Of a DNA stretch of 64,000 nt, positions 12,001-33,809 are shown piece after piece. The first letter of the stretch is position 1; every line of letters starts with the position of its first letter. The translations under genes were made by a program, and so were the position numbers. The notes beneath the pieces are model-generated. The model made no database searches. It was given only the letters and a program-made list of their open reading frames with translations, and had not been told where the DNA came from. Source of the DNA: Styela clava (Eukaryota); contig NC_135257.1 of NCBI RefSeq assembly GCF_964204865.1, positions 11,904,001 to 11,968,000 on the forward strand. Direction: 5' to 3'.

Positions 12001-15000
12001 TCCAAAGAAACCAGAATTTCAAATTGAGTTTGAAAATACGACTCTGGCTCAGTTCACAGCTCCGTTTTGTGCTAATATATATTAAATTAAAATCTAAGAC
12101 AGTACTTTTGCTTAAAAAAATGTGTAGTCTCAATAATCAACCGATATAAAATATGAAGCTACATGGTATCACTAAGGCACCCTCAGGAATCAGTTCGAGT
12201 GGCATCTCTCCTGTATGAGGGGAGTAGTATACCCGCTCTCAAAAAACAAACGGGGGTCAAACACCAGCCTGATTTTACCCAGAAATGAGTTAAGACTTCA
12301 ATAATGTTTTTAATGCCTAGTATGGCGTGTCAACCGTTGAGCCAAAGGCATATAAAGTCACAACAGTTAAAGAGTTTGGCCACTAGAAGTAAGATCGAAG
12401 TCTGTGGTTCGTCGAGTAGGCCTTTGTACCAAATATCTTCATTTTTTACCTTTATACTGAAAGTCTATTCAACATAGATTGAGAAGGCAATCCATCAAGA
12501 AGCAGATACAAGTGATTACACCATTTATATTTATTTCAATATCAAACAACAAATATGCAAAATAAGAAAATTTGGAATCCTAGAAATACAATAATGCAGA
12601 GATACACAAGAATAGTGTAAAAAATAACATTAATGATGAATAGCACCAAATTAAAACTGAGAGATGACGACCTTCAAAGCACCCTTCCCTCTTTTTAAAA
12701 ATTTTCTTTGATCGAGATGCCGGTGATGCCATGTACAAAGTAGCATTGTATTGTTTCTCAATCCTGTCACTGCATTGCAGGCTCCTACCAAATCACTACA
12801 AAATGACAACAAAGATAGTTATTGACAGACCTTAAAAATCAACTAGAAAAAAAAATATAAACTACTGTTTCCATTAACAAGGAAGAATAATTTTCTTGTG
12901 ATATGAGCAGCGTTTGATAATAGGAAAATATTATCGACTTTGAAATTTTCACTTTGAATATCTCTTCCTGATAGTGTGTTTTAATTGATAAAGCTCTCAT
13001 AAATATACAAATCAAGTCATCTGAAAGCAATAACTAACAATAAAAAATAGGACCTGTATACAACTCTGAAAGACCTCTCTCCATGCCTAACAACACTTTC
13101 TATATCTCCATATTTCTGTAGCTCCCTAAGAAACTCATAAAAAGTGTATCTTGATGCAACATTTAAAAAGATCTGAAGACAAGCATTGCAAGATTTCAAG
13201 TTTAAACAAACAAACAACCAGCAATACTAACATTACTAAGTTACCAATAGGACCAATACCAATTAATGCAAGAAATTCTTGCAATATCTCAGGGAAAATA
13301 CTGAATATTTCTGAAGCCAAAACATACCAAAATTGCATTTAAATTTTTTATATTTCAATTTCTCTTCTCTTGGATTCTATCTTCAAGTTTAAATGACCGT
13401 GATTCAAAATCAAGTTGAATATAAAAAATGACAAAAACCTCTACTGTAGATAATGGTGCCTGAACTGCAGAATTTGATTCCAAAGACGATTTCACTGCCT
13501 TTTCCAACCTGTCCTCTGTATGAACAAACAATTCAAAAAACTAAATAATTGAGGCAAACTAATAAATGGCAAGAAGACAAACTAAAAAGACAACAAAGTC
13601 TACCATCAACCAACCTTTTTTATGAAGATAAAGCTGACTGGGTTTTGGACTAAAATATGTTATGCATGGAGGTTCATGATGTTCAACATGTTCTTTATAA
13701 CAAGGCATATCCCTGAGCTGCATCAATTCTGAGCTCTGTTAAAATTGCATTGAGTTTATTTTTCCATTCAGTTAAGATCTTGGCTCAATTACTCCCACAG
13801 AGGAAAATTATTGAATCCTGCCAACTTCTTTAAAATAGAATATATTCCTTGCGACTGAATATCCACTCATGAATTTGGCTGCAATTTCAAGAATAAATCT
13901 GATTTCTGCCAATGAGACATGATGCAAACTAAGTTCACATGATGATTAAATGTAACATAGTTCGCTTAGTTACCTTTATTCTCCTGTTGTGCATTTCCTC
14001 GTATAGTTGTCTTGAAACAGGATTTGGTAAATGCGAAATCATCCGGCACACTTTGTTAAATTCATATATCATTGAAGAAGGTCTTTTCTCTTTTGCTGAC
14101 ATCTTCAAATGTGCTGCAATATTCTTTGAATAGGTATTATCTACATAACTCTGTATGACATTCCGGGTCGTCGGTACCTCAGTTTTAAATTTGGGATCAT
14201 CAATAAAAGAATTTTGAGGTGGATGGACTGGAGTGCTTCTTACTGGGTTCCGAAAGTTAACTTTTCTGGTAGAAACTGGCTTCAGGTGCATTCCATGAGA
14301 AAGGTCAAGACATAGATTTTTGATGCTGTTTTCTGATACTAATTGTCCTTTCCTGAAACATGAAGCAGCATGATTTACTTCATTATCTTCTGAAATGTCC
14401 AATTTAGGCTTCAAGTCTCCTAAAATATCCTGAATTTTTCTGTGATCCTTTTTTGCTTTCTGTGATATAGATGGCTTACTGTCTGCAGTCGGCATCATGC
14501 TACAATTTGATCCATACGGAGCAACAACTCGCAAAGCATTATTTATTGTGCCTGGCATTTTCAGAAGCAACCTAATACAACTTGCATCCGCAACAAACAA
14601 TGTTCCACAATACAAAGGGCATATTTTCAAATTGTTTATTCCCTGACCAGAATGTTGCATTATGATCAAACAATGGATAACTATACAACGTCAGAATAAA
14701 ATCAATTGTAATATCACAGAGGCCAGACAATAGGTATTTTCTTGATGTTTGTAGTTATTTTGATTTTTGCGTAACATTGAGCCTATAATTTTCAGTCATA
14801 AAATACCAAATACAGGCCAAAATGCTACAACTGACTATGATCCAATGCCGAGCAAATTTTTCAATTGCAACACCAGCATGTACAACTGCTTTAATCTTCC
14901 AAATTATTATAACTAAGTGGGATATGGCGGCTAGGACGGCTAGGCCTTAGGACAAACCCAATTTAAATCACCAACTACTCGTGTATCTATAATTTGGATT

Positions 15001-18000
15001 ACTCTGCAGTAAGGTTGAACCAAAGACAAACCAAGTCAGTTTTGTGTCATGTTTACTAACCACTCTATATATATAATATACCCAGCTAAAACAATAATAT
15101 TCAACACGATTCTTCAGATACATACGCCAAAAGCATTTAATCTGACAGGTAGTAAAGTAAAGTTAGGTGGTAAACACGAAAAACTATGTAAGAATACTAC
15201 AAACTGTTGGTGAGCCATTTCATTTGAACACAAACTTTTTTGAAAGAGAAAATTTGTCACTAACCGGAATGTAAGGTAACTGTATGATTTTCTGATTCAA
15301 AATCTCCTCCATCTTCTTCACCCTTTGGTCCCAGATCGATTTCTACAGTTTCATAAACAAACAATGTTGGAGCAGGAAATTCAGCAGATAGTCCTTTGGA
15401 TTGAACAGAAAGAACTGAGGCAGGCCATGAAGCAGTTGACTAAAATTGTAAGATATTTAATTTTAACATATAAGATAACAAGCTAGCAAATGGTGAAACA
15501 GAACATAGGTTGAAGTTCCAGGGATGGCCAATACCGAATAGTTCACTATTTCGAATACATTCGAAATTATTTTTTTCGAATATGAAATTTCGAATACTTC
15601 GAAAATAAAATCCACTAATTGAAGCTTATTTAATGTATGTAGGAATTTCCATACAATAAGCAATGGAATAACTGCTATCTACAAGTTACAACCTAGCTAT
15701 ATTACCAGGCATTTCATATTTGCAGATTATTGCATGATATATATTTGATATACCATGAGTCATGTTAACAGAATTAAATTAATACGACAATAGTGGTATC
15801 GATGATGAATTTGAATATTTGCGCAACACAAAATCATCCTAGTAAAACGCCCATACTTTTAAATACCAACCAGGCAAGGGATAAAGTATGAGGTATTTTT
15901 CCGACTTGTGACAATTTTTTCGTGAGTACAAAAATACGAATCAAAAATTAATTATATTCGGGAATTTTACCACACATTTTAAGTCCGCCGTTGTATGTAC
16001 CGTTGTATGTTTGAGTAATAATACTTTTATTATTTTATAAATATGAAAATAGGAATCAAAAACTATTTATAATCGGGTAGTTTACCACATATTGTAAGTC
16101 CACAGATCGCTGTTGTATTTTGTAAATACGAAAATCAAAAATTAATATTAATCGCGAGTTTGCCACTAGGGATGCCACTTTCGGATTTACGAATCGGATC
16201 GATTCGAATCGCATCTTTTCCGAATCGATTCGAATCAGATTTACGCGATTCGGAAAAAGAGAGCGATTTAGCGAAAAAAAAACATTGAACGTTTGTTAAA
16301 TCGTCGTTTTCGGCGGCTTTAAATCTGCCAGAGTGTGTTTATGCGGCACTCCAAATAACGCCAAATTACGGGACCGAAAAAAAAACATTGAACGTGTGTT
16401 AATCGTTGTTTTCGGCGGTGTTAAAACTACCGAATGCGTTTATGCAGCACTCCAAATAACACCAAATTACGGGACCGAAAGAAAAACATTGAATATTTGT
16501 TAATCGTTGTTTTCGGTGGCGTTTAAACTGCCGAATGCGTTTATGCGGCACTCCAAATAGCAACAAATTACGGGACGTAAATAAATGAAAATGAATTTTT
16601 CGTGATTGACTTTTTTACTTGTCTGCCGTCATTTGTTTCAAGTTCGACACAACACACTCTTTTACGCATCACTCGAGATGATGTGTGGCGTAATTACCAG
16701 CAAACTGCGAGTTCAGTTTTCCACTAAATAGCCGAAGTTTCCATTATGCGCGAATTCAAATGGATCGTATACCTGAAAATTCGTGTCAATTTTGATGAAA
16801 ATTTTCAACAGCACACCTACGCTGCCACTAAGTTATTGTACGCCCTGGCATGATTGGATAAAGAATCGGCTACCGACGTCTGGATAATGTTTAATTTTGA
16901 TTGAAATTTAATTTAAACTTTGTTCTGAGAGCAATATTTCGCGTACATTTGAAGAGAACTATTGCTGAATGAGTTCATCGGCCGGCAATGTTAATTTACA
17001 ATCATGTATCTCATCCTAAAATATATTTTTATTTTGTTTGCGTTTGTCAGGCTTCCACTCGAGTGGCGGTAAACGAAATCAGGGGGACATAATGTAATAG
17101 TACATACACGTCTTTTTTCAGCTGTTACCAAAAAAAGTAGTATTTACTTTTAATTTTGTTAGCGCGATACAAGCGGATAAAACATTTCGGATTATTTCGA
17201 GCAAATGTCATAACGGACAGGTGGGAGTAAATAATACTTGAGGAATGGCAACTTGTGCACTGTTTTACATCAACACGTGGCAGATTTCATACCAGACCGA
17301 GCATACGGTGCGAATGTCGTCTTACTTTAGCCCCAGCGACCATGTTTGATCGAGATAAAGCGTCAACCAATTATCGCTCGTCAGCGCGGCGTCCATTATG
17401 CACATTTGGACTTTCTGAATTACGAAATTAAACGTAGTCCACATTAATAATGAAGCCCGAGTTAGCCAATAACGCTTGTTTGCCACAAATAATACTGTCT
17501 CTAATATTTATGGAAATTTTTGTTCGCAATCGTAGTCGGATGAACGATTGTTTTTATCGAAATTAATTTAATTTAATCGTGGTTAATTTTATCGTCTTCA
17601 ATCATATTCTTGTAAGCATTTCCCATTTATAGTAATTCAGATGCAATTAGAATGTTTTTGTCGTATTACTCTATGCTGCTAGCATAAATATAAAATATTG
17701 TACTAAGATTTTGAAGATAAAGAATCGGTAATAAGGCCGTCCCTAATTCAATATAACAAGAAGGGAAATACCACGGTCACATATACTGGTGTGGGACAAG
17801 GGAAAGCAGTGCTGTTACTGTGTTTACGACATAACAGTACAACTGTTCCCTGCTTATTTTCTCATATGAATTCCATCAAATTGCCTCAGCCCTGATACAA
17901 GTATAACACAATAACTCAGTAATGTAAGACTCACAGATAAGTTGCAACAGCAAGTTTTTCATCAATGCATTTATTAGTGATATCTATGACCTACATTTTT

Positions 18001-21000
18001 TTTATCATGATGAAAATAAGTGTGGCTTATTCACTGAAAAACCCTCATCACCCTTGCTATATAGCCTATTCCATTTTTTTGTGAGTTTGGCCAAACATAC
18101 GCATGTAATAAAAAAAAAAAAGCTTAATGGAATCAGATTCGGAAAGATTCGATTCGAAAAGTTTTGATTCGAGATTCGATTCGAAAAAAAATGTATCCAG
18201 AAGTGGCAACCCTATTTGCCACACAATATATGTCCACAGATTGTCGGGATATTGTGCCGAATATAATTAGTTTTGATTCCTATTTTTGTACTCACGAAAA
18301 ATTTTAACAAGTTTATATTTTATCCCGCTCTTGGGAACTAATTTGGATAATGGTTGCCATTGGTTTGTATTTAAAAGTATGGACTTTTTACTAGGATGAT
18401 TTTGTGCTGCGTAAAATATTCGAATCCATGACCGATACCACTACTTAAAATGCCTTACCGTGTTAATTTAATTCTATTATCATAACTTCAAATGTTGGTA
18501 AATCGGGCAGTTTACCACACATTTGAAGGCCACAGATCGCCGTTGCATTTTAGAATTATTAGTTTTATTATTTTGTAAACACGAATCCGAAATTAATTAT
18601 AATTGGGCAGTTTACCACGTATTTCATGTCCACAAATACCCGTTGTATTTGGCATTAATACTTTCATTATTTTATCAATATGAAAATAGGAATCAATATT
18701 CAATAATATCGGTCAGTTTACTACACATTTTATGTCCACAGATTGTCGATACAACCATGAGTTACGTTGAACAGAATTAAATTAATACGGCATGACATTT
18801 TAAATGCTGGTACCAGTCATGGATTGGATTATTTTGCGCAACAAAAAATCATCCTGGTAAAGGATCAATACTTTTAACTATCGTTATCAGAATTATTTGC
18901 CAGAAATTATTTTCTAATAAATCGACTTTTCCAACTTGTGACAATTTATTGGATATCGTAACAATGACGGCTATAAATACCGTATTTCCCCGGCTAATAA
19001 GTCTTTATGGCAAATAGGACGATGTCTATTTTTAGCACTCAAAAAAGGAGTTTTTCCATATAGGCCTCCAATAAGACGGGTAGAAAAATTCGCTAATAAT
19101 TTTATATGTTCAGAACCAGATCATGTTAGTTTGGTAGAACCATACCCACAGAATTAACTATTTTTAACAATTGAGCAGTAAATTTAAGTTGCAAAGCGGC
19201 AATCATTTTGGACAACCTATTAACCCGAATGTTGAAATAATTTTGGAATGTGATGATAAGTACTATACTGTACGTCCACGGGTTATTTCACAGCTGTGTT
19301 TTCCTGTCCCTGTCGTGTTTTGCTGAATCAGCAAAACGAAAGGGTCACAAATCACTTTTATCTCGGTGGCCGTGTTTCTCTTTAAAGTAACGATAACCGG
19401 CCTGCGATTAAATATCATGATTGGCAGACCCTAAGACCCAAATATAAGGTTACACAAATCATGCTTGAGAAGACTCATGCAAATAAAAATTAGGCCACAT
19501 AGAAATAAAATAAAGATACTTTCTCAATTTTTCGACGTAATGGAAATGAATTTGTAAATTAAAAGCCTCGTACACGAATGTCGGCAATGTCCACCCTCGC
19601 AAAAGTGCAAATGTGTCGCAACACTATGCGCCCTACGGTCGCAAAGAATATAAACAATCAAAGTGCCGATTCTATTTCATCGTCATTACGTGAGACAGCG
19701 TAAAAAGTCGTTTAAAGATTCCCGTAAATAGGGTTGCCACTTCTGGATACATTTTTTTTCGAATCGAATCTCGAATCAAAACTTTTCGAATCGAATCTTT
19801 CCGAATCTGATTCCATTAAGCTTTTTTTTTTTATTACATGCGTATGTTTGGCCAAACTCACAAAAAAGCTCAAATCTAGAAGAAAAAAATTTGAAAATGG
19901 AATAGGCTATATAGCAAGGGTGATGAGGGTTTTTCAGTGAATAAGCCACACTTATTTTCATCATGATAAAAAAGATGTAGGTCATAGATATCACTAATAA
20001 ATGCATTGATGAAAAACTTGCTGTTGCAACTTATCTGCGAGTCTTACAATACTGAGTTATTGTGTTATACTTGTATCAGGGCTGAGGCAATTTGATGGAA
20101 TTTATATGAGAAAATAAGCAGGGAACAGTTGTACTGTTATGTCGTAAACACAGTAACAGCACTGCTTTCCCTTGTCCCACACCAGTATATGTGACCGTGG
20201 TATTTCCCTTCTTGTTATATTGAATTAGGGACGGCCTTATTACCGATTCTTTATCTTCAAAATCTTAGTACAATATTTTATATTTATGCTAGCAGCATAG
20301 AGTAATACGACAAAAACATTCTAATTGCATCTGAATTACTATAAATGGGAAATGCTTACAAGAATATGATTGAAGACGATAAAATTAACCACGATTAAAT
20401 TAAATTAATTTCGATAAAAACAATCGTTCATCCGACTACGATTGCGAACAAAAATTTCCATAAATATTAGAGACAGTATTATTTGTGGCAAACAGCGTTA
20501 TTGGCTAACTCGGGCTTCATTATTAATGTGGACTACGTTTAATTTCGTAATTCAGAAAGTCCAAATGTGCATAATGGACGCCGCGCTGACGAGCGATAAT
20601 TGGTTGACGCTTTATCTCGATCAAACATGGTCGCTGGGGCTAAAGTAAGACGACATTCGCACCGTATGCTCGGTCTGGTATGAAATCTGCCACGTGTTGA
20701 TGTAAAACAGTGCACAAGTTGCCATTCCTCAAGTATTATTTACTCCCACCTGTCCGTTATGACATTTGCTCGAAATAATCCGAAATGTTTTATCCGCTTG
20801 TATCGCGCTAACAAAATTAAAAGTAAATACTATTTTTTTTTGGTAACAGCTGAAAAAAGACGTGTATGTACTATTACATTATGTCCCCCTGATTTCGTTT
20901 ACCGCCACTCGAGTGGAAGCCTGACAAACGCAAACAAAATAAAAATATATTTTAGGATGAGATACATGATTGTAAATTAACATTGCCGGCCGATGAACTC

Positions 21001-24000
21001 ATTCAGCAATAGTTCTCTTCAAATGTACGCGAAATATTGCTCTCAGAACAAAGTTTAAATTAAATTTCAATCAAAATTAAACATTATCTAGACGTCGGTA
21101 GCCGATTCTTTATCCAATCATGCCAGGGCGTACAATAACTTAGTGGCAGCGCAGGTGTGCTGTTGAAAATTTTCATCAAAATTGTCACGAATTTTCAGGT
21201 ATACGATCCATTTGAATTCGCGCATAATGGGAACTTCGGCTATTTAGTGGAAAACTGAACTCGCAGTTTGCTGGTAATTACGCCACACATCATCTCGAGT
21301 GATGCGTAAAAGAGTGTGTTGTGTCGAACTTGAAACAAATGACGGCAGACAAGTAAAAAAGTCAATCACGAAAAATTCATTTTCATTTATTTACGTCCCG
21401 TAATTTGTTGCTATTTGGAGTGCCGCATAAACGCATTCGGCAGTTTAAACGCCACCGAAAACAACGATTAACAAATATTCAGTGTTTTTCTTTCGGTCCG
21501 GTAATTTGGTGGTATTTGGAGTGCTGCATAAACGCATTCGGTAGTTTTAACACCGCCGAAAACAACGATTAACACACGTTCAATGTTTTTTTTTCGGTCC
21601 CGTAATTTGGCGTTATTTGGAGCGCCGCATAAACACACTCTGGCAGATTTAAAGCCGCCGAAAACGACGATTTAACAAACGTTCAATGTTTTTTTTTCGC
21701 TAAATCGCTCTCTTTTTCCGAATCGCGTAAATCTGATTCGAATCGATTCGGAAAAGATGCGATTCGAATCGATCCGATTCGTAGATCCGAAAGTGGCATC
21801 CCTACCCGTAAAACGAAACACCACGTTTACGGCGAAAAGTGGCTACTATTCGGAATTATTCGAAAATCAGCCGAAAAGGTATTCGAATACTTTGATATTC
21901 GAATACATTCGAATATTCGATTCGTTTTGGACAACCCTGGGTTGAACGTGATGCTCCAAACATATTTATGAACATTCCCTGGAAATGACATATTCATTTT
22001 TCAAACATATGAAGAAACAGGCTACACTGGATGATGGACAAAGCAAAACTTTCTTGTAATTATGAGTCATGACTTATTAGGTACGATGTAAGGTATAAAG
22101 CAGACGTCTGTCAAACTGTAATTATGGACATGAAGTGATCATTTATGAAAACAGGGTAGAGTTTTCTATCCCTAAACTAATTAAACGGAGATACAAAACT
22201 AAATGCTATACAATATAATATTCTTGAGTTGAAACGCAGATGATAGGTGCTTGGAGGCAATGGGTGTCTGGTATCGATGGTAAAAATCAAACAACATGGA
22301 AACACAATTGTACCTGTGTGTCTGTAAAATCATCATCAGAATCGTAGTTTGTTGCAAGGGCGACACAATGATGAATTTTACCACTTGCCGTTGCAATAGC
22401 AATGACTGTGGGATTGTGATGAAGAACAAGTATCGAACAAGCATCAACACCATAATTGTCTTCTGCAGGGGGTTGCATAGTCAGAGGCCCATGCATTAAC
22501 CCTTTTCTATACCTGTAATACAATAGTACAATGTAATGTTATTGTTAAATCATACAAATTGCCATGGTTGTGAGCATATTCAATTACCGGCATTTGCTCA
22601 GATCATCAATGTACATTTGTTAAAAACATCCATAGTCAGTTTTATCTGAATCACCCGAATTTATAATATTTGTTATAAAATTTCACAGCTAGTGTTAATA
22701 AATATGAGTCATTCGAATAAACTCATCTTGGAAAACATTTCAATCACAAGCACTGCATAAAATAAACAATTTTGTTAACATTTCACCAAAAGCTCCTTTA
22801 TTTGAAATAAAAATCAAGTTTTCCCATGAGCTTTCTATCCTATAAAATTTATCCTTAAACTTATCGAATTTTTTCACACAAGATTGTTAACCAAACCTGT
22901 TGTCAGTCACAGATGTTAATAACAATAGCACATCTCCATCGCCTTGTAATAAATATATAGGATAAAGAAGAACAGTAGGTGGTTCATCTTTGTCAGCTCG
23001 TCTGGCTTGTAAAATTTTCTTTCTTTTCTCTTGCACTTCCACAGGAGGAGCAAATGAGAATGAAACCGCAGTCTCACCAATGGCAGAACTTATTGAGAAT
23101 CTAGAGTCAAAAAAGAGCAATAAAAATATTCCATTGCAGTCTCAAAGAAGAGTCGTAAACTAATGTAGTTGTCACGATTTGTATCGAAAATGGCAGAATC
23201 AGTATTAGATCATCCACTAACAGAATGCTTCGATTAATGCAATCACAACTGATCGGGGATAAGCTGTAAATTATTAAGAACATTTCCAGATAGCACAACA
23301 ACCTGACATCTTGGATACAATTCTTTAAATGGGGCTCCCAAAGTATGCGAACCAAGATGGCAGACATCGGAATGTAATATGTGTACTAGGTTAGGGTTAG
23401 GCCATAATTTTAGGTATAAATACTACGGGAGGCTCTTGGCTAGTCTTCGAACTGATAATAGGACTAAAATAAGGAAAATTGGGAAAAATCGCCTAACCCT
23501 AACCTGTTACCCATGTTACGTTCCGATGTCCGCCATCTTGGTTCGCACACTTCGGGAGCACTCTTTAAATTGATATAAATTAAGTCATGTTTTTAGGTAA
23601 ATTCAAAAAATGGGAGTATTATAAATTTATAAATCTTCTTAGAAAGCAATAATTACAGAAAATGAGAATGAATTTAATATTTGTGCCAATAACTAATTGC
23701 TATAAATACAATAAAGTCAAAATAGGGAAAAAAGGATTCAAACTTACGCTGAAGAGACTAGAGAAAACCTAGAGGATCCGATGTTGCTGTGACCAAGTTT
23801 GTGAACTTGTGTGGGTGTTTGGTTATCTGCTGTGACATCATAAATGCGCACTGTATTATCCGATAATAGCACAACAAGATGAGAGTGATTTGGAGATCCG
23901 GGATGCCATGAGGCTTGCCGCAACTGCACCATTATACATGTGGTGAAGAACCTTTCAGCTACTGGGAAACATCTGCCGAAAGAGAAGATGAAAAAAGTAC

Positions 24001-25338
24001 AGCTTGAAACTAGCAACGATCCAATACTGTTTCCAGTGTTTTTTGGTTAGATAATTCTGTTTACAGAAGAAATTAAGTTAATCGAAAGCCGAAGGACTGC
24101 ACTGAAAGGATATATATTATTTGGTGTACTTAACAATATATACCAACTCAGACACACAAATCTATTTTGTCCATTTTTCAAGTAATAATGTCACCTTAAA
24201 AGAAGATGGACATGTGGTAGATATGAGATGTAAAACAAGAAAATAGTTTCAACCATAATTTTTTGAAGTTCAGAAGCAATTGAAGACCTATAAAAACCAG
24301 GGCAAATAAAGACTATCTCTGGTAAGAAAAATTTCAGAAGTGTTTTACTTGCAAAACTGGGTGTAATTCTCCTCATCTGGATTTTTCCATTTCTGCGGCA
24401 AACACAAGACTGATATTCCTCTTGAACCAATCAGAGCTACATAAGTCCCAGATTCATTAAATTGAATGCTTCGTACTTCAAACATCGGTGGAGGTGAGCA
24501 CGAGAATTTCTGGAAAAATCAGATAAAAAAAAAACACTTACCTGCAAGAAGTAATATCTCAACAAAGGTTTTGTAATTTGTGAAAATTAATAAATTAGTG
24601 CTTCGTAAGGAGTGGTTATAATATCATTGTTCTAAAATTAAGTGTGGTAGTTCAGTAGTTATTCATGTCGACAGTTCAGATTAATGAGTGAATAACTCAG
24701 AAGAATCAGGACAAGGAGAAAGCGGCAGCTTGTGAAAAGTAAAACCAGAGTATAAATAAAGTTTGAACGATCTAATGTTGTAAGAACATTGCATTGTCTT
24801 CCAATGTATTTTCAACATTACTCTTTTGTTTAGTACCGTATTATATTCAAAATTGGGTTACATGTTTATAATGTTACACATTCCATAGCAATGTACGAGA
24901 AAACCTTCAAGCCAAGTACCATACCTTGTAAATTCAGTAACCCGCTTGTACCAATGTTATTTTTTTTGGACAGTTATAAAACTTTGGGCAAATGGTCAAA
25001 GAAAGCATATCAAGTAGGATTCAGTTGTTATGATCCATGATATTTTGAGACACCCCTTTGAGCAGAGCACATGGTATGATCGACAGTCTCATTAAATAAA
25101 CATCACAGTCAGAAAGTATTATATTTACCTGAACACCTGGCTCTTCAATATCTAATGACATCCTCAAGTTGGTAACATAAAAGCAGCTCTCTTTATTACT
25201 CCATACATAGAGGAATCCATCTTGCACATGCATTAATTGGTCAGCTCTATGTGATATGTTTTCAACTTCAGCATTTTCTTCAACCAATGTTTTGAAAATC
25301 GGATGATTCTCGATCACCTCTTTGAAGTCAGCACTCAT
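9097..25338 (-). CDS. NUP88: Nuclear pore complex protein Nup88
   Basis: Multi-exon gene; examples 25338-25129, ~24509-24349, ~23973-23747, ~23099-22897, ~22512-22314, 15439-15265, 11910-11773, further exons 11.6-9.6 kb, last ~9163-9097. Motifs PVAERFFT, QASWHP, LLSDNTVRIY, GETAVSFSF, GPLTMQPPAEDNYGVDAC, LFVYETVE, DPLLYCRYHCC..GVHAV and a C-terminal coiled coil (ILRKEYILKQ, VPVLSKAEIEM.KEL). Confidence 0.93.
12651..14660 (-). CDS. TEX56/C6orf201 (DUF4523, RRM-like) family protein, ~382 aa, nested on the same strand in a NUP88 intron
   Basis: Exons 14660-13974, 13735-13615, 13515-13439, 13172-13054, 12795-12651 join with GT-AG ends and matching phases (0,1,0,2) and no stops. The C-terminus APLSTVEIFL...ELQKYGDIESVVRHGERSFRVVYSDLVGACNAV...LLCTWHHRHL resembles recalled TEX56 (PMSTIVVRW..RLSAFGPIQSV..CGRQSAIV.F.D..SACNAV..QCSWQQRF). 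AATAAA at 12535-12530. Confidence 0.78.
15752..18950. repeat. Foldback-like array of inverted and tandem repeats interrupted by hAT copy A
   Basis: ~15770-15960 is inverted at ~18257-18478 and directly repeated at ~18755-18950. ~90-110-bp units with a TTTACCACACATT.TA.GTCCACAGAT core recur at ~15965, 16080, 16159/18215, 18510, 18610 and 18717. Confidence 0.65.
16167..18214. mobile_element. Non-autonomous hAT element, copy A (2048 bp)
   Basis: TIRs TAGGGATGCCACTT / AAGTGGCAACCCTA. Exact 8-bp TSD TTTGCCAC (16159-16166, 18215-18222). GATTCGAAT subterminal repeats and an internal 3x ~105-bp tandem repeat (~16270-16580). Confidence 0.92.
19729..21804. mobile_element. Non-autonomous hAT element, copy B (2076 bp), inverted relative to copy A
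   Basis: Reverse complement of copy A with scattered SNPs and a ~28-bp indel. Own exact 8-bp TSD CCCGTAAA (19721-19728, 21805-21812). Confidence 0.92.
23331..23562. mobile_element. MITE with long TIRs and GGTTAGGGTTAGG motifs (GG..CC-type ends, 8-bp TSD; Merlin/MULE-like)
   Basis: ~75-bp imperfect TIRs (GCTCCC.AAGT.TGCGAACCAAGATGGC.GACATCGGAA); TSD CTTTAAAT on both sides. Confidence 0.8.
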
Positions 25339-25977
25339 GATTTCATATAAGAATTAGGAATATTAATTTAGACTGAAGAAATATAAAATATATCTGACAG
25401 GACAGTCAATTTTCAAAATAACAATGTTCGACAGAATTGGATCAGGGTTGATAAAATAGCCTATATTGAGTATATAAGAAATCAGCAAATTAAGAATCAT
25501 TATTTGGCATACAAAAATAAATAAATCTGAAGAAGTGTAGCAGAAGAAGTAAGAACTATGAACGACCAGGACCAAGTGATGAATTATGGCTAGAATTGAG
25601 CTTCTTAATGATGTATCATGTCCCAACATTTTTTAAAACAAATGATCTCTATATTTTGTCATACACGTTGAAGACAATAAAACATCACACCACTGAGATA
25701 TGCAAAATTATCTGTTTTACTTGCAGTTATGCAATATAACACTTGATGACACCACAACAATTTTGACCGGACCCAGTACACTAGATTCTGAAATCTGTAG
25801 TCAATTCAGAACTATGACAATTATTTATGACATGTTCATCAAATGGTACAACGGTAGACAAGTTTAAAAACAGTCATGATAATCTAAAACAATTAAGATT
25901 TCAAATCTTTACATTTTATTTTGAATCATGCCTTGATATCAAAAAAAGAGATCGTGGAACCCCAAACCATAGTAAAA

Positions 25978-26316
25978 TCACTCATTCTTAATCCTCAGTT
26001 CTTCAGGTATGAACCCAGCATCATTTTCAATGCATGTAACACAAAAGCGTTTTTTATGAAACAGGCTACATTTATCATCGACACAAACAGTTGCATTGCA
26101 AAGAGAACAGTGACCTCCCAATACTAACACTTCTCTTGTCTGAACAAAAGGATTGTCCATTATATAGACCTCTTCATGGAAAGTGAGCTTTCTCACACGA
26201 GAAGGTCTTTTTCCAAAATAACGGTATGGAGCTTCTAGTCCACAAATAGAGCAAACAAAGCTAGGTAAGACTTTGTCAGTTTCCTTCTTTTGTTTAACAT
26301 CCAATGATTCTTGCAT
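25978..26316 (-). CDS. CDPF1: Cysteine-rich DPF motif domain-containing protein 1
   Basis: Single exon. F.CSICGL.APYRYFG..P...LTFHEEVYIMDNPF...LVLGGHCSLCNATVCV...CSLFHKKRFCVTCI matches the recalled CDPF1 cysteine pattern. Confidence 0.88.
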   Translation of the reverse strand: MQESLDVKQKKETDKVLPSFVCSICGLEAPYRYFGKRPSRVRKLTFHEEVYIMDNPFVQTREVLVLGGHCSLCNATVCVDDKCSLFHKKRFCVTCIENDAGFIPEELRIKNE

Positions 26317-26866
26317 CACATTACTGGAATTACGACTTAATTGTTCTATTTCAACAGTAAACTACTATATATATATTAATCCTGCATGAAACAATAACGG
26401 TCCATTACTCACAATTTAAACTTGACAGAAAGTTGAATACTAACAGACATGATTTGGTGATCGACCAAACCGTTAATGGGGTCTAACAATATGCATATTC
26501 ATTCAAGATCTTCTTTGAATCATTTTAAAACATGAAATTTAGAGAATGCACCAAATTTTACTGATGTTTTCATTAAATCCACATAAATTGAGATGGAAAT
26601 GGTGCCAAATTCTTATGGAACACACTTTTTAATACATTAGTAATTTTTTCAAGTGATTATGATCAGATCATTCCAAGTCAATATGAAAACAATAACTTTT
26701 ATTATTTGGTAATGGATTTTGAATAATTTATGGTCAGCAACATAATTCTCTTGACATTCATAAAAACTGTTAAGAGTTTATTCAGTTCAAAATGACAATA
26801 ATTTTTTCAACCAATAATGCAATTCCAATTAGACAGAATGTATCATGCTATTTTATACCACAATGT

Positions 26867-28360
26867 TTATTCATTGCCAGCCATATCAACATCATCCTCA
26901 ATAGTTAAATCCTCCAACATCTCCTGTAATGTAATCTTCGGCATGCTCTCATCATCTGTATCAGTTGGTACATGAGAGCGATCAACATAAACATCCACAT
27001 TTTTCCTGAATTCTTTATCTTCCTCTAAATCTTCCATAAATCCAACAAAAGATTCATCATCCGAAGCGGTATTTGTAGCCAGTCTTCGGAGTTTCCAATT
27101 TCTGCGGCGTCTTCTCCTCTGTTTGTCACCAAATACTTTTTTAACAAGTATAACATCAGGTACATCTTGTTCCTTCATTTTATCCAATTCCACATTGCTC
27201 TGATTTGAATTTCTCAAATCGTATCCCAGAACCGTGTCACCAGGGTTTAATAAATGACCAAGATGTGTGACAGTATGAACATAATCCTCATTTATTCCTA
27301 ATTCGCTTGCTTTCACAACCCAACAATCTGCCAAAAGATGTTTGTGGGATTTTGCACCCTCACCAGACTTTTGCTGTCTATTATGAATAGGTTCGATTTC
27401 CATTACTATATATTGTATGAGATTTTTAGAAGAACTACAGGAGTAAAAAGGGTTTCGCCAGTAAGCTGTTCCATTGACCTCGCATAACTGTAGTGTTTTG
27501 AAATCGATCAAATGAATACAATTTGTTACACGAATACAGAGAGCAAGTTGATCCATATTTCCAAGTTGTTGAGCAAGCTTTTTAGGTAAACAGACAATAT
27601 CATCCTTACAGACTGGAGGGATTTCAACAGAAAAAGTAGTTTTATAGTTATAGGTACTTGTATGGACATCATGCGAAATTAACTGCTGTGCTGACTGGTA
27701 ACGACAAGGCAACATGCTCATAAGAAAATCAGTAAATTTTCTGGCATCTTGTTTAGATGAATAGAAGAAATCAAGCCCATTTGGATTTTCAGATAGCTTC
27801 GTACATGTAGAGTGCATTTTATGTTTCAGAATAATTTGTTCCAAATAATAAAATGTCTTCTTATGCGTTGTCTTTTGTCTAGCTTGTACAACAGAATTCC
27901 AGAAATCTTTTGCTTCTATCCTATGGCAGTCATTGCACATATGATTATGAATAACAAATTCGACGACAAAAGTTTGCTGTAAGAATGTGCCACCATCAAC
28001 TTCTTTTTGAATAGCAATTTTAACTTTAATTCGTTTAGAATGGGGTTCAGTCCAAACAAATGCAGCATCCACCAAACGTACTTTTGACAGCGTTGACTTG
28101 AGCCGTTTTAAACAAATTGCGAGTAGTTCTCGCGATTCAAGAGCTGCCTTTGTCCAAGCATTGGGAGGAGAATGATATCTTTCACAATTCCTGCACATTA
28201 GCAAATTTCCAGACTTTGGTATACCATCAGTAATATCAACACGAGAACGAAGGCAGTCGACACATGTATTACTTGGATTGGGTTGTATAGGAATGCCGCA
28301 ATCACAACACAATATTGTGTCCATTGTTTGGGTTGAGGGCATTTCACTCATTGTTTCCAT
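26867..28360 (-). CDS. NMD3: 60S ribosomal export protein NMD3 (intronless CDS)
   Basis: ~497-aa ORF with ILCCDCG.PI.PN..N.CV.CLR, LESRELLAICLK, FVWTEPHSKRIKVK, HKKTFYYLEQ, THLGHLL.PGD, an NLS-like RRRRRRNWKL and a C-terminal NES-like LQEMLEDLTI. Confidence 0.97.
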   Translation of the reverse strand: METMSEMPSTQTMDTILCCDCGIPIQPNPSNTCVDCLRSRVDITDGIPKSGNLLMCRNCERYHSPPNAWTKAALESRELLAICLKRLKSTLSKVRLVDAAFVWTEPHSKRIKVKIAIQKEVDGGTFLQQTFVVEFVIHNHMCNDCHRIEAKDFWNSVVQARQKTTHKKTFYYLEQIILKHKMHSTCTKLSENPNGLDFFYSSKQDARKFTDFLMSMLPCRYQSAQQLISHDVHTSTYNYKTTFSVEIPPVCKDDIVCLPKKLAQQLGNMDQLALCIRVTNCIHLIDFKTLQLCEVNGTAYWRNPFYSCSSSKNLIQYIVMEIEPIHNRQQKSGEGAKSHKHLLADCWVVKASELGINEDYVHTVTHLGHLLNPGDTVLGYDLRNSNQSNVELDKMKEQDVPDVILVKKVFGDKQRRRRRRNWKLRRLATNTASDDESFVGFMEDLEEDKEFRKNVDVYVDRSHVPTDTDDESMPKITLQEMLEDLTIEDDVDMAGNE

Positions 28361-29329
28361 TTTCAGGTTCAAATTAAATTACTTATATTTGATCATGTGT
28401 GATTCCTAAAGAAAATGTGTTACTGGTAATTCAGATAATAGATATTGCCAGGAATGACTAAAAGTCTACGGAATATTTCAAAAATAATATTTTCAAATAC
28501 ATATATTATTTCCTACCTCTCACTATATATTTTCTAAATCATGCCCAACAATTTACATGTTTATAAACTTGAGATGTGCATACATATGTAAATATGTCAG
28601 ACTTCGGTAAGATTAAGTTCATACATAATAACTTCAAGTCAATAAGAAGTTCAATTAAAAATTTAAATTTATTTACAAATATTAGTACATATCTCATCTA
28701 CTCCCTAATTAGGTTTAGTCTGCTAAATTTTTTGGTTAATATTACACCAAAACCAGAAAACCATATGAGAATGTACAAAATAAAAGTTGCTTCAAAAACA
28801 AACACCACTAACAAACATCATCCATGTGAAATGAACACATAGTAAAATAGTGTTCAAAGGAATTATCTGTCATAGCCTAACTGCAGAACTGCATTAGCTG
28901 GGTTACAACAGGTCATTACTTTTTACAGTTTTATAGCACTGCGTTGGACCTAAAATTAAACAAACTTACAGACATACTGTTACTATACCATTATACCAAA
29001 AAACACATTAACATTATTATGCATATAATTAGAAAATGCATGCATTTTTTTTTCTTCAAATGGATCCACAATGTAGATTATTCAATAAGTAAATAATATA
29101 TAAATTAAATATATGTTAAGACATCTTGTGTACTAAAAGTGAAGAAACATATATATCAGTAATATCAAGATAATTCCATCAGATGTAATATTCCATATAA
29201 TCCAGGGAGTTCCAATAATTCATTCGTTGATTTCGTAATACAAATTACATCGTTTATTTTTAATTATTTAGCATAAAAAAACTTAATTTTAGAATCCGTC
29301 ACAATTTATTACATATCATGGCAAGTTCT

Positions 29330-29880
29330 TTTATATAACAAAATTCCTTTCTCCCTTTTTCTATATTTCTTCTCATTATAAGTGAGTTCCTAATTTTCAT
29401 ACCGTAATAACATTATTTATGCTTAGGTTATGATTTTGAAATATCACAGCATTACACTCCAACCAAATTTTATATCTTGCTGTACAAAATAACAATATAT
29501 TAGAGTTACGTTGTATAATGGATAAATTTGAATAACAGTGATCATTTAAGTCCAATAAAATGCAAGTTTTATAAATATTTTTCATCACACAGTTTCTCAT
29601 TTTTAATGCCACAGAAAAGATATAATCATAGACATTCTGTTTAAAAACAATTCCAAAACAAATGAGACACAAATTCAGAATCTTATTTACATAACACACA
29701 AATATTATCCCCAGAAATATGTCTTATTCTTGGCTTAACTTTGATTGATAAAATGTCCCACATTAATTTATAATTGAAAATCTTTACATTATTGGCCAAA
29801 ATTTTAGAATGTATATTTGAACAAGCCCCTATAAAATTACCATCTCTCAAAAAAACAATTCTATCTTCACCCTTCGAATT
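29330..29880 (-). pseudogene. Degraded 3' end of an L1/Tx1-type LINE ORF2 (zf-RVT CCHC region)
   Basis: Minus-strand translation across stops and frameshifts gives KIFNYKLMWDIL...DNICVLCK*DSEFVSHLFWNC, then ARYKIWLECNAVIFQN. This is the typical zf-RVT and downstream IW..RN..IF motif. Confidence 0.65.
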
Positions 29881-30679
29881 ATTAACAATTTTATTACCGT
29901 ATATAAATGTCTATGCTTTTCTTGAATTAAATCAGTTTCAGTGATGTTGTACCGTAAAAGCAGGTAACTTCCGATGGTTTGTAACTTCGGATGAAATTTT
30001 TAATCGTCTATATCTTGACTAAATTACTTCATCTTGTGCTTCTGGCAGTTCTATGGAGAGTCCTTATATATCTAAATCTGATATCGAATGGAATCGCTCA
30101 ATAATATTTATTTTTTTACACAAAAAAACACATTTTAGCCAGAATGTTGATTATAGTTCCATAGTATTTCTGAGAGAAAAAACATGGGATACACTATTAT
30201 TAATAGGCAATTTGAAATATATCTTAATAGAGCACATTTTTCAGCCACCCTAACAAACAAGCCATGTGTTATTTGTAAATTGGACCCCATGTTTCAGTCG
30301 GTCTGTACTGTACTACAGTATTGATATTCAAACAATTTTCTTATTTCCACTTTTTATGGATTGATTAATTTGATTTATTATCAAATCATGACATATAAAA
30401 ACTTCATGCCGAGTCATTGTGAACGGCAATTTTGACGTGAATTTTTGTCTATTACCGGTACCGGTACCGTATTTTCTAATTCTACATAAGAGGGATAAGT
30501 TTGACATCGGGTGTGATTACCAAATTACTTATCTATGGTTATCGATATCCGTCACTACAATTTTTAACCAATCGTTAAAAATTAAACTCTCGTTTGTGGG
30601 TCAACTAAACATGACCGGCGAGTCCACGTTAATTAAACACGCCTCCCTGCCAGACTCTGTTTGCCACTGTCTAACTTTT

Positions 30680-31680
30680 CCTCGGTGATTGGACAATATT
30701 TTATGGGCGCGTCTCTTACGGAGAACCTGATTGGATGATATCATTGATGATTTAGTCAACCGGTTGCGAAATCGCTAAAGTATACGTGATGCTTGGAAAT
30801 TCGAATGCAGCATAGTTACATCATAATGTTCAACCTACGATGATCAAATGCTGTCCTGTGTCAGTGTTGTTGTTATCTAAACAAAATTCGGTTTATGCGT
30901 TCGTTTTACATAGAGCAGAAAAGGTTCCAGATTTAGACTGCTCGCAGTAATTTGATGATTTACGAGACCGTTGATTGTGAATTCAAATGCTACGATACGG
31001 TACGTAATTCAGTAATTAGTTAAGTGATTAGTGTAGCACCAGAGCTTTATCCCTAACGTATATTCATCCACAATCTGGGAATTCTATTGCCATAAACAGT
31101 TGAAGAGTTAACTTTTGATAACTGTGAGTGTGTTAGTCAAAGTGTCAAGATTGTATATGCCTACTGCAGTACTGACATACACACATTAGTATTAATTTTT
31201 TCCGACCCCATAATCAGCATAAAAGGCGGGGATATAATTGATAACAAATAAATACAGAAATAGAATTAGGAGAGCAATGAAAACCTTAAGTCTGCAAGTG
31301 TCAGGGTTTTGCCAAAATGAAATGTCATGCATGTTCACTCATCTAAAATTATCAAATAAATTTACACACACACATTCCCATGCACAACCACAGAGTAATA
31401 ACTCACAATGGAGTTAGGAAATCAGGAAAAACTTAAAATAAATCACATAAAAATTATTTGCCATGCCATATTAATAATTTTATAACAGTTGCTAAATTGA
31501 ATATCGATTTTGTAAATAAGAGTGATTAATAAATAAAATATTTATAAATGAAATGTTGTCACGATATTATATTTGAGTCAAATGCGAAATTGTCCAATCA
31601 AAGTTGAGTGCATGAGCATGAGAAGGTGGGCAGGACCACTTTCAGACTTCATTTGAATTTGTGGCCAATCAAATATTGCT
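30680..31680. promoter_or_regulatory. Divergent promoter region between NMD3 and FBP with paired CCAAT boxes
   Basis: ATTGG at 30688 and 30730 (TGATTGG) and CCAAT at 31594 and 31665 (CCAATCA) point in opposite directions. GC-box-like GGTGGGCAGG at ~31625. Confidence 0.4.
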
Positions 31681-31870
31681 GTCTTGGGAATAATTTATCA
31701 TACTGGAATAAGCTTACATAAATCATGAATTCGTGTAGGGTAAAGCCAAATCAAATCTAATTACTAAATTATGATCTATTCAATTACACATTTTTCCATT
31801 TAGCTTTAAAGTACTTTTCTAACTCTTTAGCTATCGGTGCAATAGCTGCTAGTTAATAAATACAGAAGCA

Positions 31871-33809
31871 ATGTCAACTGAAACGCAATTGGACACAGAT
31901 CCTTGTATTCTGACAAGGCATATAAATGAAAGTGGTAGAAAAGCTGGCGGAACTGGTGAATTGTCACAATTATTGAATAGCATTTGTACTGCTGTGAAAG
32001 CTATCTCTGCAGCTGTAAGAAGGGCTGGAATTGCAAACTTGTAAGTATTGGTATTTCTGTGTTTTCAAGAATTCTTATGTATTTGTAAACAGATGAACTT
32101 GTGATAAGTAAAATTTCATGTCCTTGTATTTCACAGATATGGCATATCAGGTACGGAAAATGCAACTGGTGATCAACAGAAAAAGCTCGATGTACTTGCT
32201 AATGATTTGATGGTGAATTTGCTCAGGTCATCTTACAGTACATGTCTGATGGTCTCCGAGGAAAACGATAATGTGGTTGAAGTTGATTTAAAAAAGCATG
32301 TAAGGACTGAAATTTATGACCTTGCCTACTGTTTCTGAAAACTAGATTAATACTACCAAAGTATAAATTTTAATCAACATCTTTTCACAGGGAAAATATA
32401 TTGTGACATTTGATCCTCTGGATGGCTCATCAAATATAGATTGCCTGGTATCCATCGGAACAATATTTGGTATATTTAAAAAGGTGAGTAGAACAAGATT
32501 TATATTTTGGTCGGAGGATAATATCAAAGTGGTTTGGAAGACTTATGGTTATGTGACATTATAATAATAATGAATATGTTCAGTTCATCAAGTAATGAGA
32601 GTAACAACCCCAATCAACAGGTATTCTCAAGCTTCTGGTGTTACGGAGCCCTTGCAGTGGTTGAGTAGTATTAACGGAGCCCCGCAATTAATTTATAAGA
32701 ACGCGTTTTTATTTACTGATTAATGTCCCTGAGTAAACAAAAATTACTTTATTTGATGATTCTGATGTACTTACTGCTTTGTATTTGAAAAATATTCAGT
32801 ATTTTAATAATCAAATGAATAGCTTGCATAGCCCCAAGTTTTCTCTTACGGAGTACTTTGAGAACCTATGGTCAATAATACTGTGTAAACTATTCCCATT
32901 TCTTAATTTGCTTTTAGGCTTCTGATGGACCACCTACTGCCGCTGATGCTCTTCAGCCTGGAAATAATTTGGTGGCAGCTGGTTATGCACTTTATGGAAG
33001 TGCTACTGTCATTGTGATTGCAACAGAGCTATCAGTGGACATGTTCATGTTGGATCCTGTAAGATTCGTACAATTTGATCATCTTGTGTGTTTGTTTAAA
33101 ACTCTTGACTGTAGTGTTTGGTAAGGTGTGCCATGAAATGGGTATTTACTTTTTCAATATATTAGGTTGAAAACACATGCAAAACTGATTTTCTGTTTTA
33201 ATTTAGAGTATTGGTGAATTCATATTAACACAGAAAGATATCAAAATCAAAAAGAAAGGAAAATATTTCAGCATCAATGAAGGATATACGAAGTACTGGG
33301 ATCCTGCTATAAAGGAATATGTTGACAGGAAGAAGTTTCCACAGGTAACAATTTTTATTATGTTATAAATTATGACTTTTTCATCAAAGTATTATAACTA
33401 TTTGCTTACTTACAGGATGGTGGTAAACCGTACAATGCTCGCTACATTGGTTCAATGGTAGCAGATGTACACAGGACTCTGGTTTATGGTGGCGTATTTG
33501 CTTATCCAGCACACAGCCAGAGCCCAAACGGAAAGGTAATATTTACAATTGAGATTTACATACTCTGTTTCAGCTCTTTTATATGTTGTGTGTGCTTTTC
33601 AGCTACGTCTTCTGTATGAGGCTGGACCCATGGCTTATGTACTGGAGAGAGCTGGTGGAAAGGCAACTACTGGACACCAACGTATTATGGATATAGTCCC
33701 AGAAAACATTCATCAAAGAGTCCCAGTTTTCTTGGGGTCACCTGATGACGTTGATGAATACTTGGAAATTGTGAAAAAACACAAAAATTATGTCGCTAAT
33801 GAAAAATAA
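31871..33809 (+). CDS. FBP1: Fructose-1,6-bisphosphatase
   Basis: Seven exons: 31871-32040, ~32137-32299, ~32391-32483, ~32919-33058, ~33208-33344, ~33417-33535, 33603-33809. Motifs [79 protein letters not shown]. Confidence 0.96.
32618..32870. mobile_element. Degenerate Buster/Charlie-type hAT MITE
   Basis: Ends CAGGTATTCTCAA / TTGAGAACCTATG with repeated ACGGAGCCC. TSD not preserved. Confidence 0.45.

What the first reader, a model, noticed from the sequence alone, without database searches (positions are those of the whole stretch)
25338..28405. Candidate NMD3-CDPF1-NUP88 operon: a 60S-export module that may assign a function to CDPF1
Seen: three co-oriented genes with 550 bp (NMD3 stop to CDPF1 ATG) and 639 bp (CDPF1 stop to NUP88 ATG) between CDSs. 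Each gap contains AATAAA followed by an unpaired acceptor 34-65 nt before the next ATG, and promoter-like CCAAT boxes were noticed only upstream of NMD3 (~30.7 kb). Known: ascidians have SL-resolved operons, NMD3 is the CRM1 adaptor for pre-60S export, and the Nup88-Nup214 complex is required for that export. Inference: a functionally coherent polycistron implicating the uncharacterised Cys-rich CDPF1 in ribosome or nuclear export, with the nested TEX56-like gene as a possible fourth cistron.
Basis: partly seen in the sequence, partly recalled or inferred. Interest (0 to 1): 0.75.

Follow-up and report, generated by a model that had tools for sequence, protein, structure and literature searches.

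The report
Sea-squirt three-gene housekeeping operon
Three housekeeping genes in a sea squirt sit end to end with RNA running across both gaps, so they likely form an ordinary tunicate operon; the trio is broken up in other sea squirts, so it says little about what the middle gene does, although that gene also neighbours a nuclear-pore gene in Ciona.

Summary
NMD3, CDPF1 and NUP88 are real, co-oriented and 550/639 bp apart, in a genome whose NMD3 matches a Styela clava protein. Spliced RNA contigs cross the CDPF1-NUP88 boundary in 3 of 7 runs and the NMD3-CDPF1 boundary in 1 of 7. One NMD3 contig runs through gap 1 to the G of the CDPF1 acceptor, as in Ciona operons. One CpG-rich patch lies upstream (o/e 1.32); both gaps are CpG-poor (0.38, 0.42). 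Best reading: an ordinary Ciona-type operon with no spacer DNA (about 0.65). No spliced leader was seen, so read-through between separate genes stays open. The 60S-export module is poorly supported: in Ciona the three genes are unlinked, in Clavelina NMD3 and CDPF1 are on different scaffolds, and elsewhere CDPF1 abuts unrelated genes. A nuclear-pore role for CDPF1 is therefore a lead (about 0.12), not a finding.

The parts
30401..31100 (.). CpG-rich promoter-like patch between NMD3 and the divergent FBP1 gene; likely the single promoter of the unit
   Evidence: 35 CpG, o/e 1.32, against 0.50 for 24200-30400; holds CCAAT at 30734 and 30692. Promoter role is inferred from Ciona (PMC3333190 abstract, PMC3827831 passages).
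28406..30400 (-). About 2-kb leader upstream of NMD3, likely an outron removed by trans-splicing
   Evidence: RNA contigs cover it (X1 28407-29184, X8 26872-29164); no joint to 28405 listed; more than 50 ATGs. Includes a polymorphic repeat-like insert at 29953-30140.
28361..28405 (-). NMD3 5' UTR after an unpaired AG acceptor (exon start 28405)
   Evidence: Sequence; weak matrix score 0.6; contigs of one study stop 7-12 nt below it, others run past or stop lower.
26867..28360 (-). NMD3 coding sequence, one exon, 497 aa
   Evidence: Pfam NMD3, NMD3_OB, NMD_SH3; 100% (rounded) to a protein labelled Styela clava.
26382..26866 (-). Gap 1, upstream part: NMD3 3' UTR, reaching the G of the next acceptor; AATAAA at 26782 and 26703
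   Evidence: X6 contig runs 28318 to 26382; X1 contig crosses the boundary; CpG o/e 0.31.
26317..26381 (-). CDPF1 5' UTR after the unpaired CAG acceptor at 26384-26382; predicted leader-addition site 26381
   Evidence: no leader letters seen.
25978..26316 (-). CDPF1 coding sequence, one exon, 112 aa; single copy in the genome
   Evidence: Pfam C6_DPF 1.5e-29; one match in G000; model pLDDT 88.
25373..25977 (-). Gap 2, upstream part: CDPF1 3' UTR; AATAAA at 25920, CCAAT at 25440
   Evidence: RNA contigs cover it well beyond the AATAAA; X1, X3 and X4 contigs cross into spliced NUP88; CpG o/e 0.42.
25339..25372 (-). NUP88 5' UTR after a strong unpaired acceptor; predicted leader-addition site 25372
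   Evidence: Best of 21 AGs in gap 2, score 13.2.
9097..25338 (-). NUP88, 14 coding exons, 747 aa
   Evidence: Exon map of P0271 (Styela clava nucleoporin 88-like) on the window; intron 1 joint in 4 of 4 runs.
12651..14690 (-). Nested same-strand ORFs in NUP88 intron 6, possibly TEX56-like; not shown to be a cistron
   Evidence: 251-aa open frame plus small pieces; DUF4523 E 0.019 on 1 of 6 pieces; no RNA laid here.

Best explanation
NMD3, CDPF1 and NUP88 lie end to end on one strand with RNA crossing both boundaries, and they likely form an ordinary Ciona-type operon of housekeeping genes whose grouping is probably accidental rather than a 60S-export module. A single promoter in the CpG-rich patch at 30.4-31.1 kb would make one pre-mRNA of about 21 kb. 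Spliced-leader trans-splicing at three unpaired acceptors (28405, 26381, 25372) would drop the 2-kb outron and release three mRNAs: NMD3 about 2.0 kb, CDPF1 about 1.0 kb, and NUP88. The gaps are then UTR, not spacer: each upstream mRNA ends at or near the next acceptor. CDPF1 is best read as a small gene that rides on whatever housekeeping transcription unit is next to it. Shown: genes, spacing, RNA cover and bridging contigs, CpG profile, loss of linkage in Ciona and Clavelina. Inferred: one promoter, leader addition, poly(A) sites, accidental grouping.
For: (1) X1 has one contig 25129-26652 that carries NMD3 3' UTR, all of CDPF1 and the spliced NUP88 exon 1-2 joint; it overlaps the NMD3 contigs by 30 nt at each step. 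X3 and X4 also cross 25372 into spliced NUP88: 3 of 7 runs, 2 of 3 studies. (2) The X6 NMD3 contig runs past both AATAAA to 26382, the G of the acceptor. In Ciona poly(A) is added to that G and 16 of 18 operons lack AATAAA within 40 nt (PMC1488885 sections 14-15); none lies within 60 nt here. (3) One CpG-rich patch (o/e 1.32, up to 13 CpG per 200 nt) against gaps at 0.38 and 0.42 (at most 4 and 3 per 200 nt; P 0.019 and 0.011 against o/e 1); in Ciona promoters are unmethylated and gene bodies methylated. (4) NMD3 and CDPF1 are single-exon; 60% of Ciona operons start with a single-exon gene and 185 of 1,310 have three genes. (5) Ciona NMD3 and NUP88 models are named SL1-1 and SL2-1. (6) Gaps hold 16 and 13 ATGs, so the downstream genes need new 5' ends. 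(7) Accidental grouping: Ciona NUP88 = Chr3.88, CDPF1 = Chr3.769, NMD3 = Chr8.1278; Clavelina NMD3 and CDPF1 are on scaffolds of different length in two assemblies; CDPF1 appears fused in gene models to REJ-domain, GCV_T-domain and amino-acid-transporter proteins (4 of 11 long hits scanned).
Against: No spliced-leader letters appear among the loose ends shown (24 of 37, all 6); those near the acceptors align as alleles or are adapter. A contig across two genes does not show a single transcript. Boundary 1 is bridged in only 1 of 7 runs among the rows shown. Acceptors 26381 and 28405 score weakly. The stretch just before the FBP1 start is also CpG-poor (0.38), so CpG-poor promoters may exist. 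In the same family, Botryllus fuhc shows bridging RNA over a 227-bp gap without a leader, read by its authors as read-through. Against 'accidental': Ciona CDPF1 is adjacent to NUP93, and NMD3 and CDPF1 seem to share a 5,611-nt contig in another ascidian.
Confidence: 0.65

Rival explanations
1. Three separately promoted genes packed tightly. CDPF1 and NUP88 start from small promoters inside the upstream gene's 3' UTR, with or without a leader, and the bridging RNA is overlap or polymerase read-through.
For: No leader seen. Boundary 1 bridged in only 1 of 7 runs. AATAAA exists in both gaps and CCAAT at 25440. All 4 CpG of gap 1 lie in its lower 140 nt, around the acceptor. Precedent in Botryllus fuhc.
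Against: Both gaps have gene-body CpG levels. RNA cover runs far past the AATAAA sites, and one NMD3 contig reaches the acceptor G. The motifs are at chance frequency.
Confidence: 0.22
2. A stable unresolved two- or three-gene mRNA, translated by leaky scanning or re-initiation, with CDPF1 as an internal or upstream ORF.
For: Bridging contigs include spliced NUP88. A 5,611-nt contig that seems to carry NMD3 and CDPF1 in another ascidian is close to the summed spliced length here (3,277 + 2,034 nt plus 3' UTR). RefSeq numbers for Styela NUP88 and NMD3 are consecutive.
Against: 13-16 ATGs per gap. Cluster mates of those two proteins sit on separate contigs of 2,287 and 945 nt, near the predicted single mRNA sizes of 2,024 and 1,009 nt. 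No NUP88 was tied to the 5,611-nt contig.
Confidence: 0.05
3. An operon kept together by function, the first reader's module: CDPF1 is a zinc-finger adaptor for nuclear pores or 60S export, and so tends to be co-transcribed with nucleoporin genes.
For: NMD3 carries the CRM1 export signal and Nup214/Nup88 act at the release step (PMC8551241 passages). CDPF1 is next to NUP88 here and next to NUP93 in Ciona; chance for one of two neighbours being a nucleoporin is 0.3-2.3%. NUP93 is on another contig here, so the two adjacencies are not one retained block in this genome. NMD3-CDPF1 linkage seems kept in one other ascidian.
Against: The trio is unlinked in Ciona and partly in Clavelina. The other Ciona neighbour is RAB11 and the best fold matches are Rab-effector and FYVE zinc fingers (Z 4.8, rmsd 2.1, 47 aligned; weak), so neighbourhood could argue for vesicle traffic as well. 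CDPF1 correlates with NUP93, NUP88 and NMD3 at 0.89, 0.83, 0.65, but with 5 of 6 control genes at 0.82-0.96. With a broad set of 300 ribosome and export genes, 1-7 co-operonic pairs are expected by chance in a Ciona-sized operon set. Oikopleura operon genes are not necessarily correlated in function or expression.
Confidence: 0.12

Closest known systems
Ciona intestinalis/robusta leader-resolved operons without intercistronic DNA (Satou 2006 PMC1488885; Satou 2008 PMC2760879, e.g. the DTL-URM1-CHERP tricistron)
   Same: Same-strand housekeeping genes; single-exon 5' members; upstream RNA running to the acceptor G; no AATAAA next to the boundary; RNA across the boundary.
   Different: Here no leader or poly(A) site is mapped; the species is a stolidobranch with a 377-Mb genome; this gene set is not linked in Ciona.
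Oikopleura dioica operons (PMC11067885, PMC4122922 passages)
   Same: Housekeeping content; loose functional relation; membership not conserved between lineages.
   Different: Oikopleura has 23-30 nt intercistronic spacers and a compact genome; here the coding gaps are 550-639 bp of UTR.
Botryllus schlosseri fuhc sec/tm gene pair (PMC3691228 passages)
   Same: Styelid ascidian; two close co-oriented genes; RNA linking both.
   Different: There the downstream gene lacked a leader and read-through was favoured; here unpaired acceptors lie at the boundaries and leader status is unknown.
Other tight CDPF1 gene pairs: PKDREJ-CDPF1 in mammals, IBA57-CDPF1 in arthropods
   Same: CDPF1 abuts an unrelated gene closely enough to be fused in gene models (REJ and GCV_T fusions; squirrel record).
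   Different: Those lineages are not known to use leader-resolved operons (recalled); the partners have nothing to do with nuclear export. The IBA57 name comes from an earlier AI note.

Membership tests
Ciona-type leader-resolved operon | Co-oriented genes whose transcripts abut (under 100 bp apart) | tested here: inconclusive
   RNA contigs cover both gaps; one NMD3 contig reaches 26382. Contigs cannot map true ends.
Ciona-type leader-resolved operon | RNA crosses the gene boundaries | tested here: met
   Boundary 2 in 3 of 7 runs (X1, X3, X4), boundary 1 in 1 of 7 (X1), among rows shown; not single-molecule evidence.
Ciona-type leader-resolved operon | Spliced leader joined at the downstream acceptor | tested here: inconclusive
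   No leader letters among loose ends shown; contigs drop rare variants and the Styela leader sequence was not found.
Ciona-type leader-resolved operon | One promoter, no start site in the gaps | tested here: inconclusive
   CpG proxy supports it; no CAGE or ATAC data available.
Ciona-type leader-resolved operon | No canonical poly(A) signal just upstream of the boundary (16 of 18 in Ciona) | tested here: met
   No AATAAA or ATTAAA within 60 nt of 26381 or 25372.
Ciona-type leader-resolved operon | Poly(A) added at the G of the acceptor AG | tested here: inconclusive
   X6 contig is laid to that G with 5 letters left unlaid and unseen; allele variation could also stop the alignment there.
Ciona-type leader-resolved operon | Single-exon 5'-most gene (typical, 60% in Ciona) | tested here: met
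   NMD3 and CDPF1 coding sequences are unbroken.
Ciona-type leader-resolved operon | Leader RNA gene in the genome | tested here: inconclusive
   Two Ciona-based patterns gave 36 against 37 and 25 against 57 control matches.
Functionally coherent operon (60S-export module) | Linkage conserved across tunicates | tested here: not met
   All three unlinked in Ciona; NMD3 and CDPF1 on different scaffolds in Clavelina. Probably kept in one closer ascidian (shared contig length 5,611).
Functionally coherent operon (60S-export module) | Co-expression above background | tested here: inconclusive
   Ciona embryo series, 16 samples: export genes 0.65-0.89, 5 of 6 controls 0.82-0.96; dominated by the maternal pattern.
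Functionally coherent operon (60S-export module) | CDPF1 binds or acts with pore or pre-60S factors | not testable with these tools
   Needs localisation, pull-down or knockdown.
NMD3 family | Pfam NMD3, OB and SH3 domains over cut-off | tested here: met
CDPF1 family (PF10170) | C6_DPF over cut-off with conserved cysteines | tested here: met
   102.6 bits against cut-off 27; C22, C25, C70, C92 invariant in 105 sequences.
NUP88 family (PF10168) | Nup88 profile over cut-off, full exon chain | tested here: met
TEX56 / DUF4523 (nested gene) | DUF4523 over cut-off | tested here: inconclusive
   15.2 bits against 27 on one 55-aa piece of 6; exon pieces only.

The most novel reading that the evidence does not exclude
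CDPF1 is an unrecognised zinc-finger cofactor of the nuclear pore or of CRM1-dependent 60S export. Tunicate operons betray this by placing it beside a nucleoporin gene twice independently: between NMD3 and NUP88 in Styela, and beside NUP93 in Ciona.
Probability: 0.12. Interest if true: 0.7.

Novelty: new member of a known kind. Interest (0 to 1): 0.3.

Why it matters
As an operon it is one more of a class with about 1,300 members in Ciona. Its modest value is as a testable case in Styela, where my searches found no operon study (no mention in the genome paper; 3 papers hold 'Styela clava' and 'trans-splicing', 2 listed, neither on operons by title), and as a gene that annotation may have folded into UTR. 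If the double nucleoporin neighbourhood is not chance, it gives a first concrete hypothesis for CDPF1, a conserved animal gene with no functional paper among the listings. One localisation or proximity-labelling experiment in human cells would test it.

Tried and rejected
AATAAA and CCAAT as evidence: chance level. Loose ends as leader: the three checked align to the genome as alleles; two others are adapter. Two X2 contigs ending exactly at the AG of 25372 are explained by an allele bubble closing there, so not used. Stretches without cover (X8 at 26369-26609; all four runs at 30707-31188; intron 1 nearly empty) and contig stops near the acceptors (5-55 nt below 26381 in 5 runs; 12 and 21 nt below 25372 in 2 runs) fit separate mRNAs, but no DNA run was laid, so they are not counted. 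Depth differences between the genes in X6 were not used, since contig depth cannot rank genes. Depth arithmetic hints that an unlisted X5 contig also stops near 26381; not counted. No holder is on record as RNA; the spliced joint is my ground for treating them as RNA. Leader RNA gene search: no excess over control; a triple at C5 has no Rfam match and was dropped. Rfam on 24000-32000: nothing. Word-based homologue search for CDPF1 found nothing although a 65% relative exists, so that blank is no evidence. No PDB chain matches CDPF1 by profile (1 row, E 0.64); Foldseek had no match at E 0.001; the atlas returned only CDPF1 clusters. No complex prediction was run, because neighbourhood alone does not justify it. 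Orientation and operon status of Ciona CDPF1-NUP93 could not be found (the KH gene-model supplement was too large). PMC312621 and PMC2860165 are not held. Clavelina NUP88 and NUP93 positions were not obtained. An ancestral NUP93-CDPF1-NUP88 block gets no support here: NUP93 is on C19.


Full report
What is there. The minus strand carries a single-exon NMD3 (28360-26867), a single-exon CDPF1 (26316-25978) and a 14-exon NUP88 (from 25338), 550 and 639 bp apart. The NMD3 protein matches one labelled Styela clava, and the NUP88 exons match Styela clava nucleoporin 88-like. CDPF1 is single-copy in G000. FBP1 runs the other way from about 31.87 kb.

AATAAA occurs in both gaps, but a gap of this size holds one by chance with P 0.55-0.60, and the sites are 320-550 nt from the acceptors. 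CCAAT also occurs inside the gaps. The acceptor at 25372 is strong, the best of 21 AGs in gap 2. Those at 26381 and 28405 score weakly in a rough 13-site matrix.

RNA. Nine runs guessed as RNA hold half or more of the stretch's words; I laid 7 of them, from 3 studies, as assembled contigs. They splice NUP88 intron 1 (joint 25129-24509 in 4 of 4 runs). X1 has one contig from 26652 through CDPF1 into spliced NUP88, and its path continues into NMD3 by 30-nt overlaps. X3 and X4 also cross the CDPF1-NUP88 boundary. That gives 3 of 7 runs for boundary 2 and 1 of 7 for boundary 1, among the rows shown (118 and 25 rows were hidden). In X6 the NMD3 contig runs through gap 1 to 26382, the G of the CDPF1 acceptor, with 5 letters unlaid. 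No joint pairs any of the three acceptors with a donor. No leader letters appear in the loose ends shown; those near the acceptors are alleles or adapter. Contigs cannot show ends or single molecules, so this supports but does not prove one transcript.

Promoter proxy. CpG o/e is 1.32 at 30401-31100, 0.50 across 24200-30400, and 0.38 and 0.42 in the gaps. In Ciona, start sites are CpG-rich (PMC3333190, abstract), and promoters are unmethylated while housekeeping gene bodies are methylated (PMC3827831, passages). This favours one promoter. Caveats: those CpG-rich stretches are short, and the DNA just before FBP1 is CpG-poor too.

Comparison with known operons. Ciona has 1,310 candidate operons, 185 with three genes; 60% start with a single-exon gene (PMC2760879, passages and section 10). 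Genes abut, poly(A) is added to the acceptor's G, and 16 of 18 lack AATAAA within 40 nt (PMC1488885, abstract and sections 14-15). The warning case is Botryllus fuhc, where RNA links two close genes but no leader was found (PMC3691228, passages).

Is the grouping functional? NMD3 is the CRM1 adaptor, and Nup214/Nup88 act at release (PMC8551241, passages); the specific Nup88 requirement for 60S export is recalled, not read. In Ciona, NUP88 is KY21.Chr3.88, CDPF1 Chr3.769 and NMD3 Chr8.1278 (supplement rows of PMC10951915 and PMC12258801). In Clavelina, NMD3 lies on scaffolds of 24.6 and 12.2 Mb and CDPF1 on 28.8 and 3.6 Mb in two assemblies. An unnamed NMD3 (77% identical) and an unnamed CDPF1 (65%) both list a longest contig of 5,611 nt, which suggests linkage in one closer ascidian; I could not fetch that contig. 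Of 11 long CDPF1 hits scanned, 4 are fused to other domains: REJ twice, GCV_T, amino-acid transporter. An earlier AI note reports a tight IBA57-CDPF1 pair in arthropods, which fits the GCV_T fusion. Oikopleura operon members are not necessarily correlated in function or expression and are rarely conserved (PMC11067885, passages). By chance, a Ciona-sized operon set holds 0.01-0.12 pairs from a narrow 40-gene export set and about 1-7 from a broad 300-gene set (set sizes are my assumptions).

The result against my reading. Ciona CDPF1's numbered neighbours are RAB11 and NUP93. One of two neighbours being a nucleoporin has a chance of 0.3-2.3%, higher if any ribosome or export gene would have counted. 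NUP93 is on another contig here, single-exon and followed by a coiled-coil gene. Strand and spacing in Ciona are unknown. Ciona embryo expression does not separate export genes from controls. The CDPF1 model (pLDDT 88) weakly resembles RIM, FYVE and Rab-effector zinc fingers (best Z 4.8, rmsd 2.1, 47 aligned), which says nothing specific about function. I raise the functional idea to about 0.12 and leave it as a lead.

Verdict. Likely a real but ordinary tunicate operon (0.65), a new member of a known kind. Independent genes with read-through remain possible (0.22). The 60S-export module is not supported as a conserved unit. Interest 0.3. Other papers seen: PMC7986045 (passages, supplement search), PMC4691747 and PMC4122922 (passages), PMC7540406 (term search, no hits), PMC10810493 (supplement search, no hits). 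Supplements I could not read (the KH gene models) may settle the Ciona orientation.

Noticed in passing
window 16167-21804, NUP88 intron 5: Near-perfect inverted repeat: arms of about 1.9 kb (16167-18077 and 19894-21804, 99-100% complementary) around a 1.8-kb spacer, CpG-rich unlike the gene body. Looks like a young foldback element or inverted duplication; would form a long hairpin in the pre-mRNA.
   Followed up: partly
Ciona KY21.Chr3.768-771: Order RAB11, CDPF1, NUP93, UBE2S: CDPF1 beside a second nucleoporin gene. Strand unknown.
   Followed up: partly
window 34000-40000, minus strand: AAAS (aladin), another nucleoporin gene, lies a few kb upstream on the same strand, beyond FBP1 (Pfam 6e-9). 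In Ciona it is on an unplaced contig.
   Followed up: partly
L021 157-7708 (G000:C19 9.874-9.882 Mb): Single-exon NUP93 followed about 1 kb later by a same-strand multi-exon coiled-coil gene (CCDC186-like by recall, no Pfam call): a second candidate operon with unrelated members.
   Followed up: partly
window 29953-30140: 187-bp insertion absent from RNA contigs of three runs (non-canonical joint) and flanked by repeat-like loose ends; likely a polymorphic mobile element.
   Followed up: no
window 25978-26316: RefSeq numbers for Styela NUP88 and NMD3 are consecutive and this CDPF1 sequence is not in the collection; the gene may be unannotated in that release.
   Followed up: partly
window 30401-31850: The CpG-rich patch may serve both NMD3 and the divergent FBP1; the stretch nearer FBP1 is CpG-poor but has two CCAAT boxes near 31595 and 31666.
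   Followed up: no
L020 2461-4327: DDE_Tnp_4 (Harbinger-type) transposase frames about 5 kb upstream of NUP93.
   Followed up: no
window 53918-54307: A glutathione-peroxidase-like frame (by recall) nested on the opposite strand within an aldehyde-dehydrogenase-like gene.
   Followed up: no
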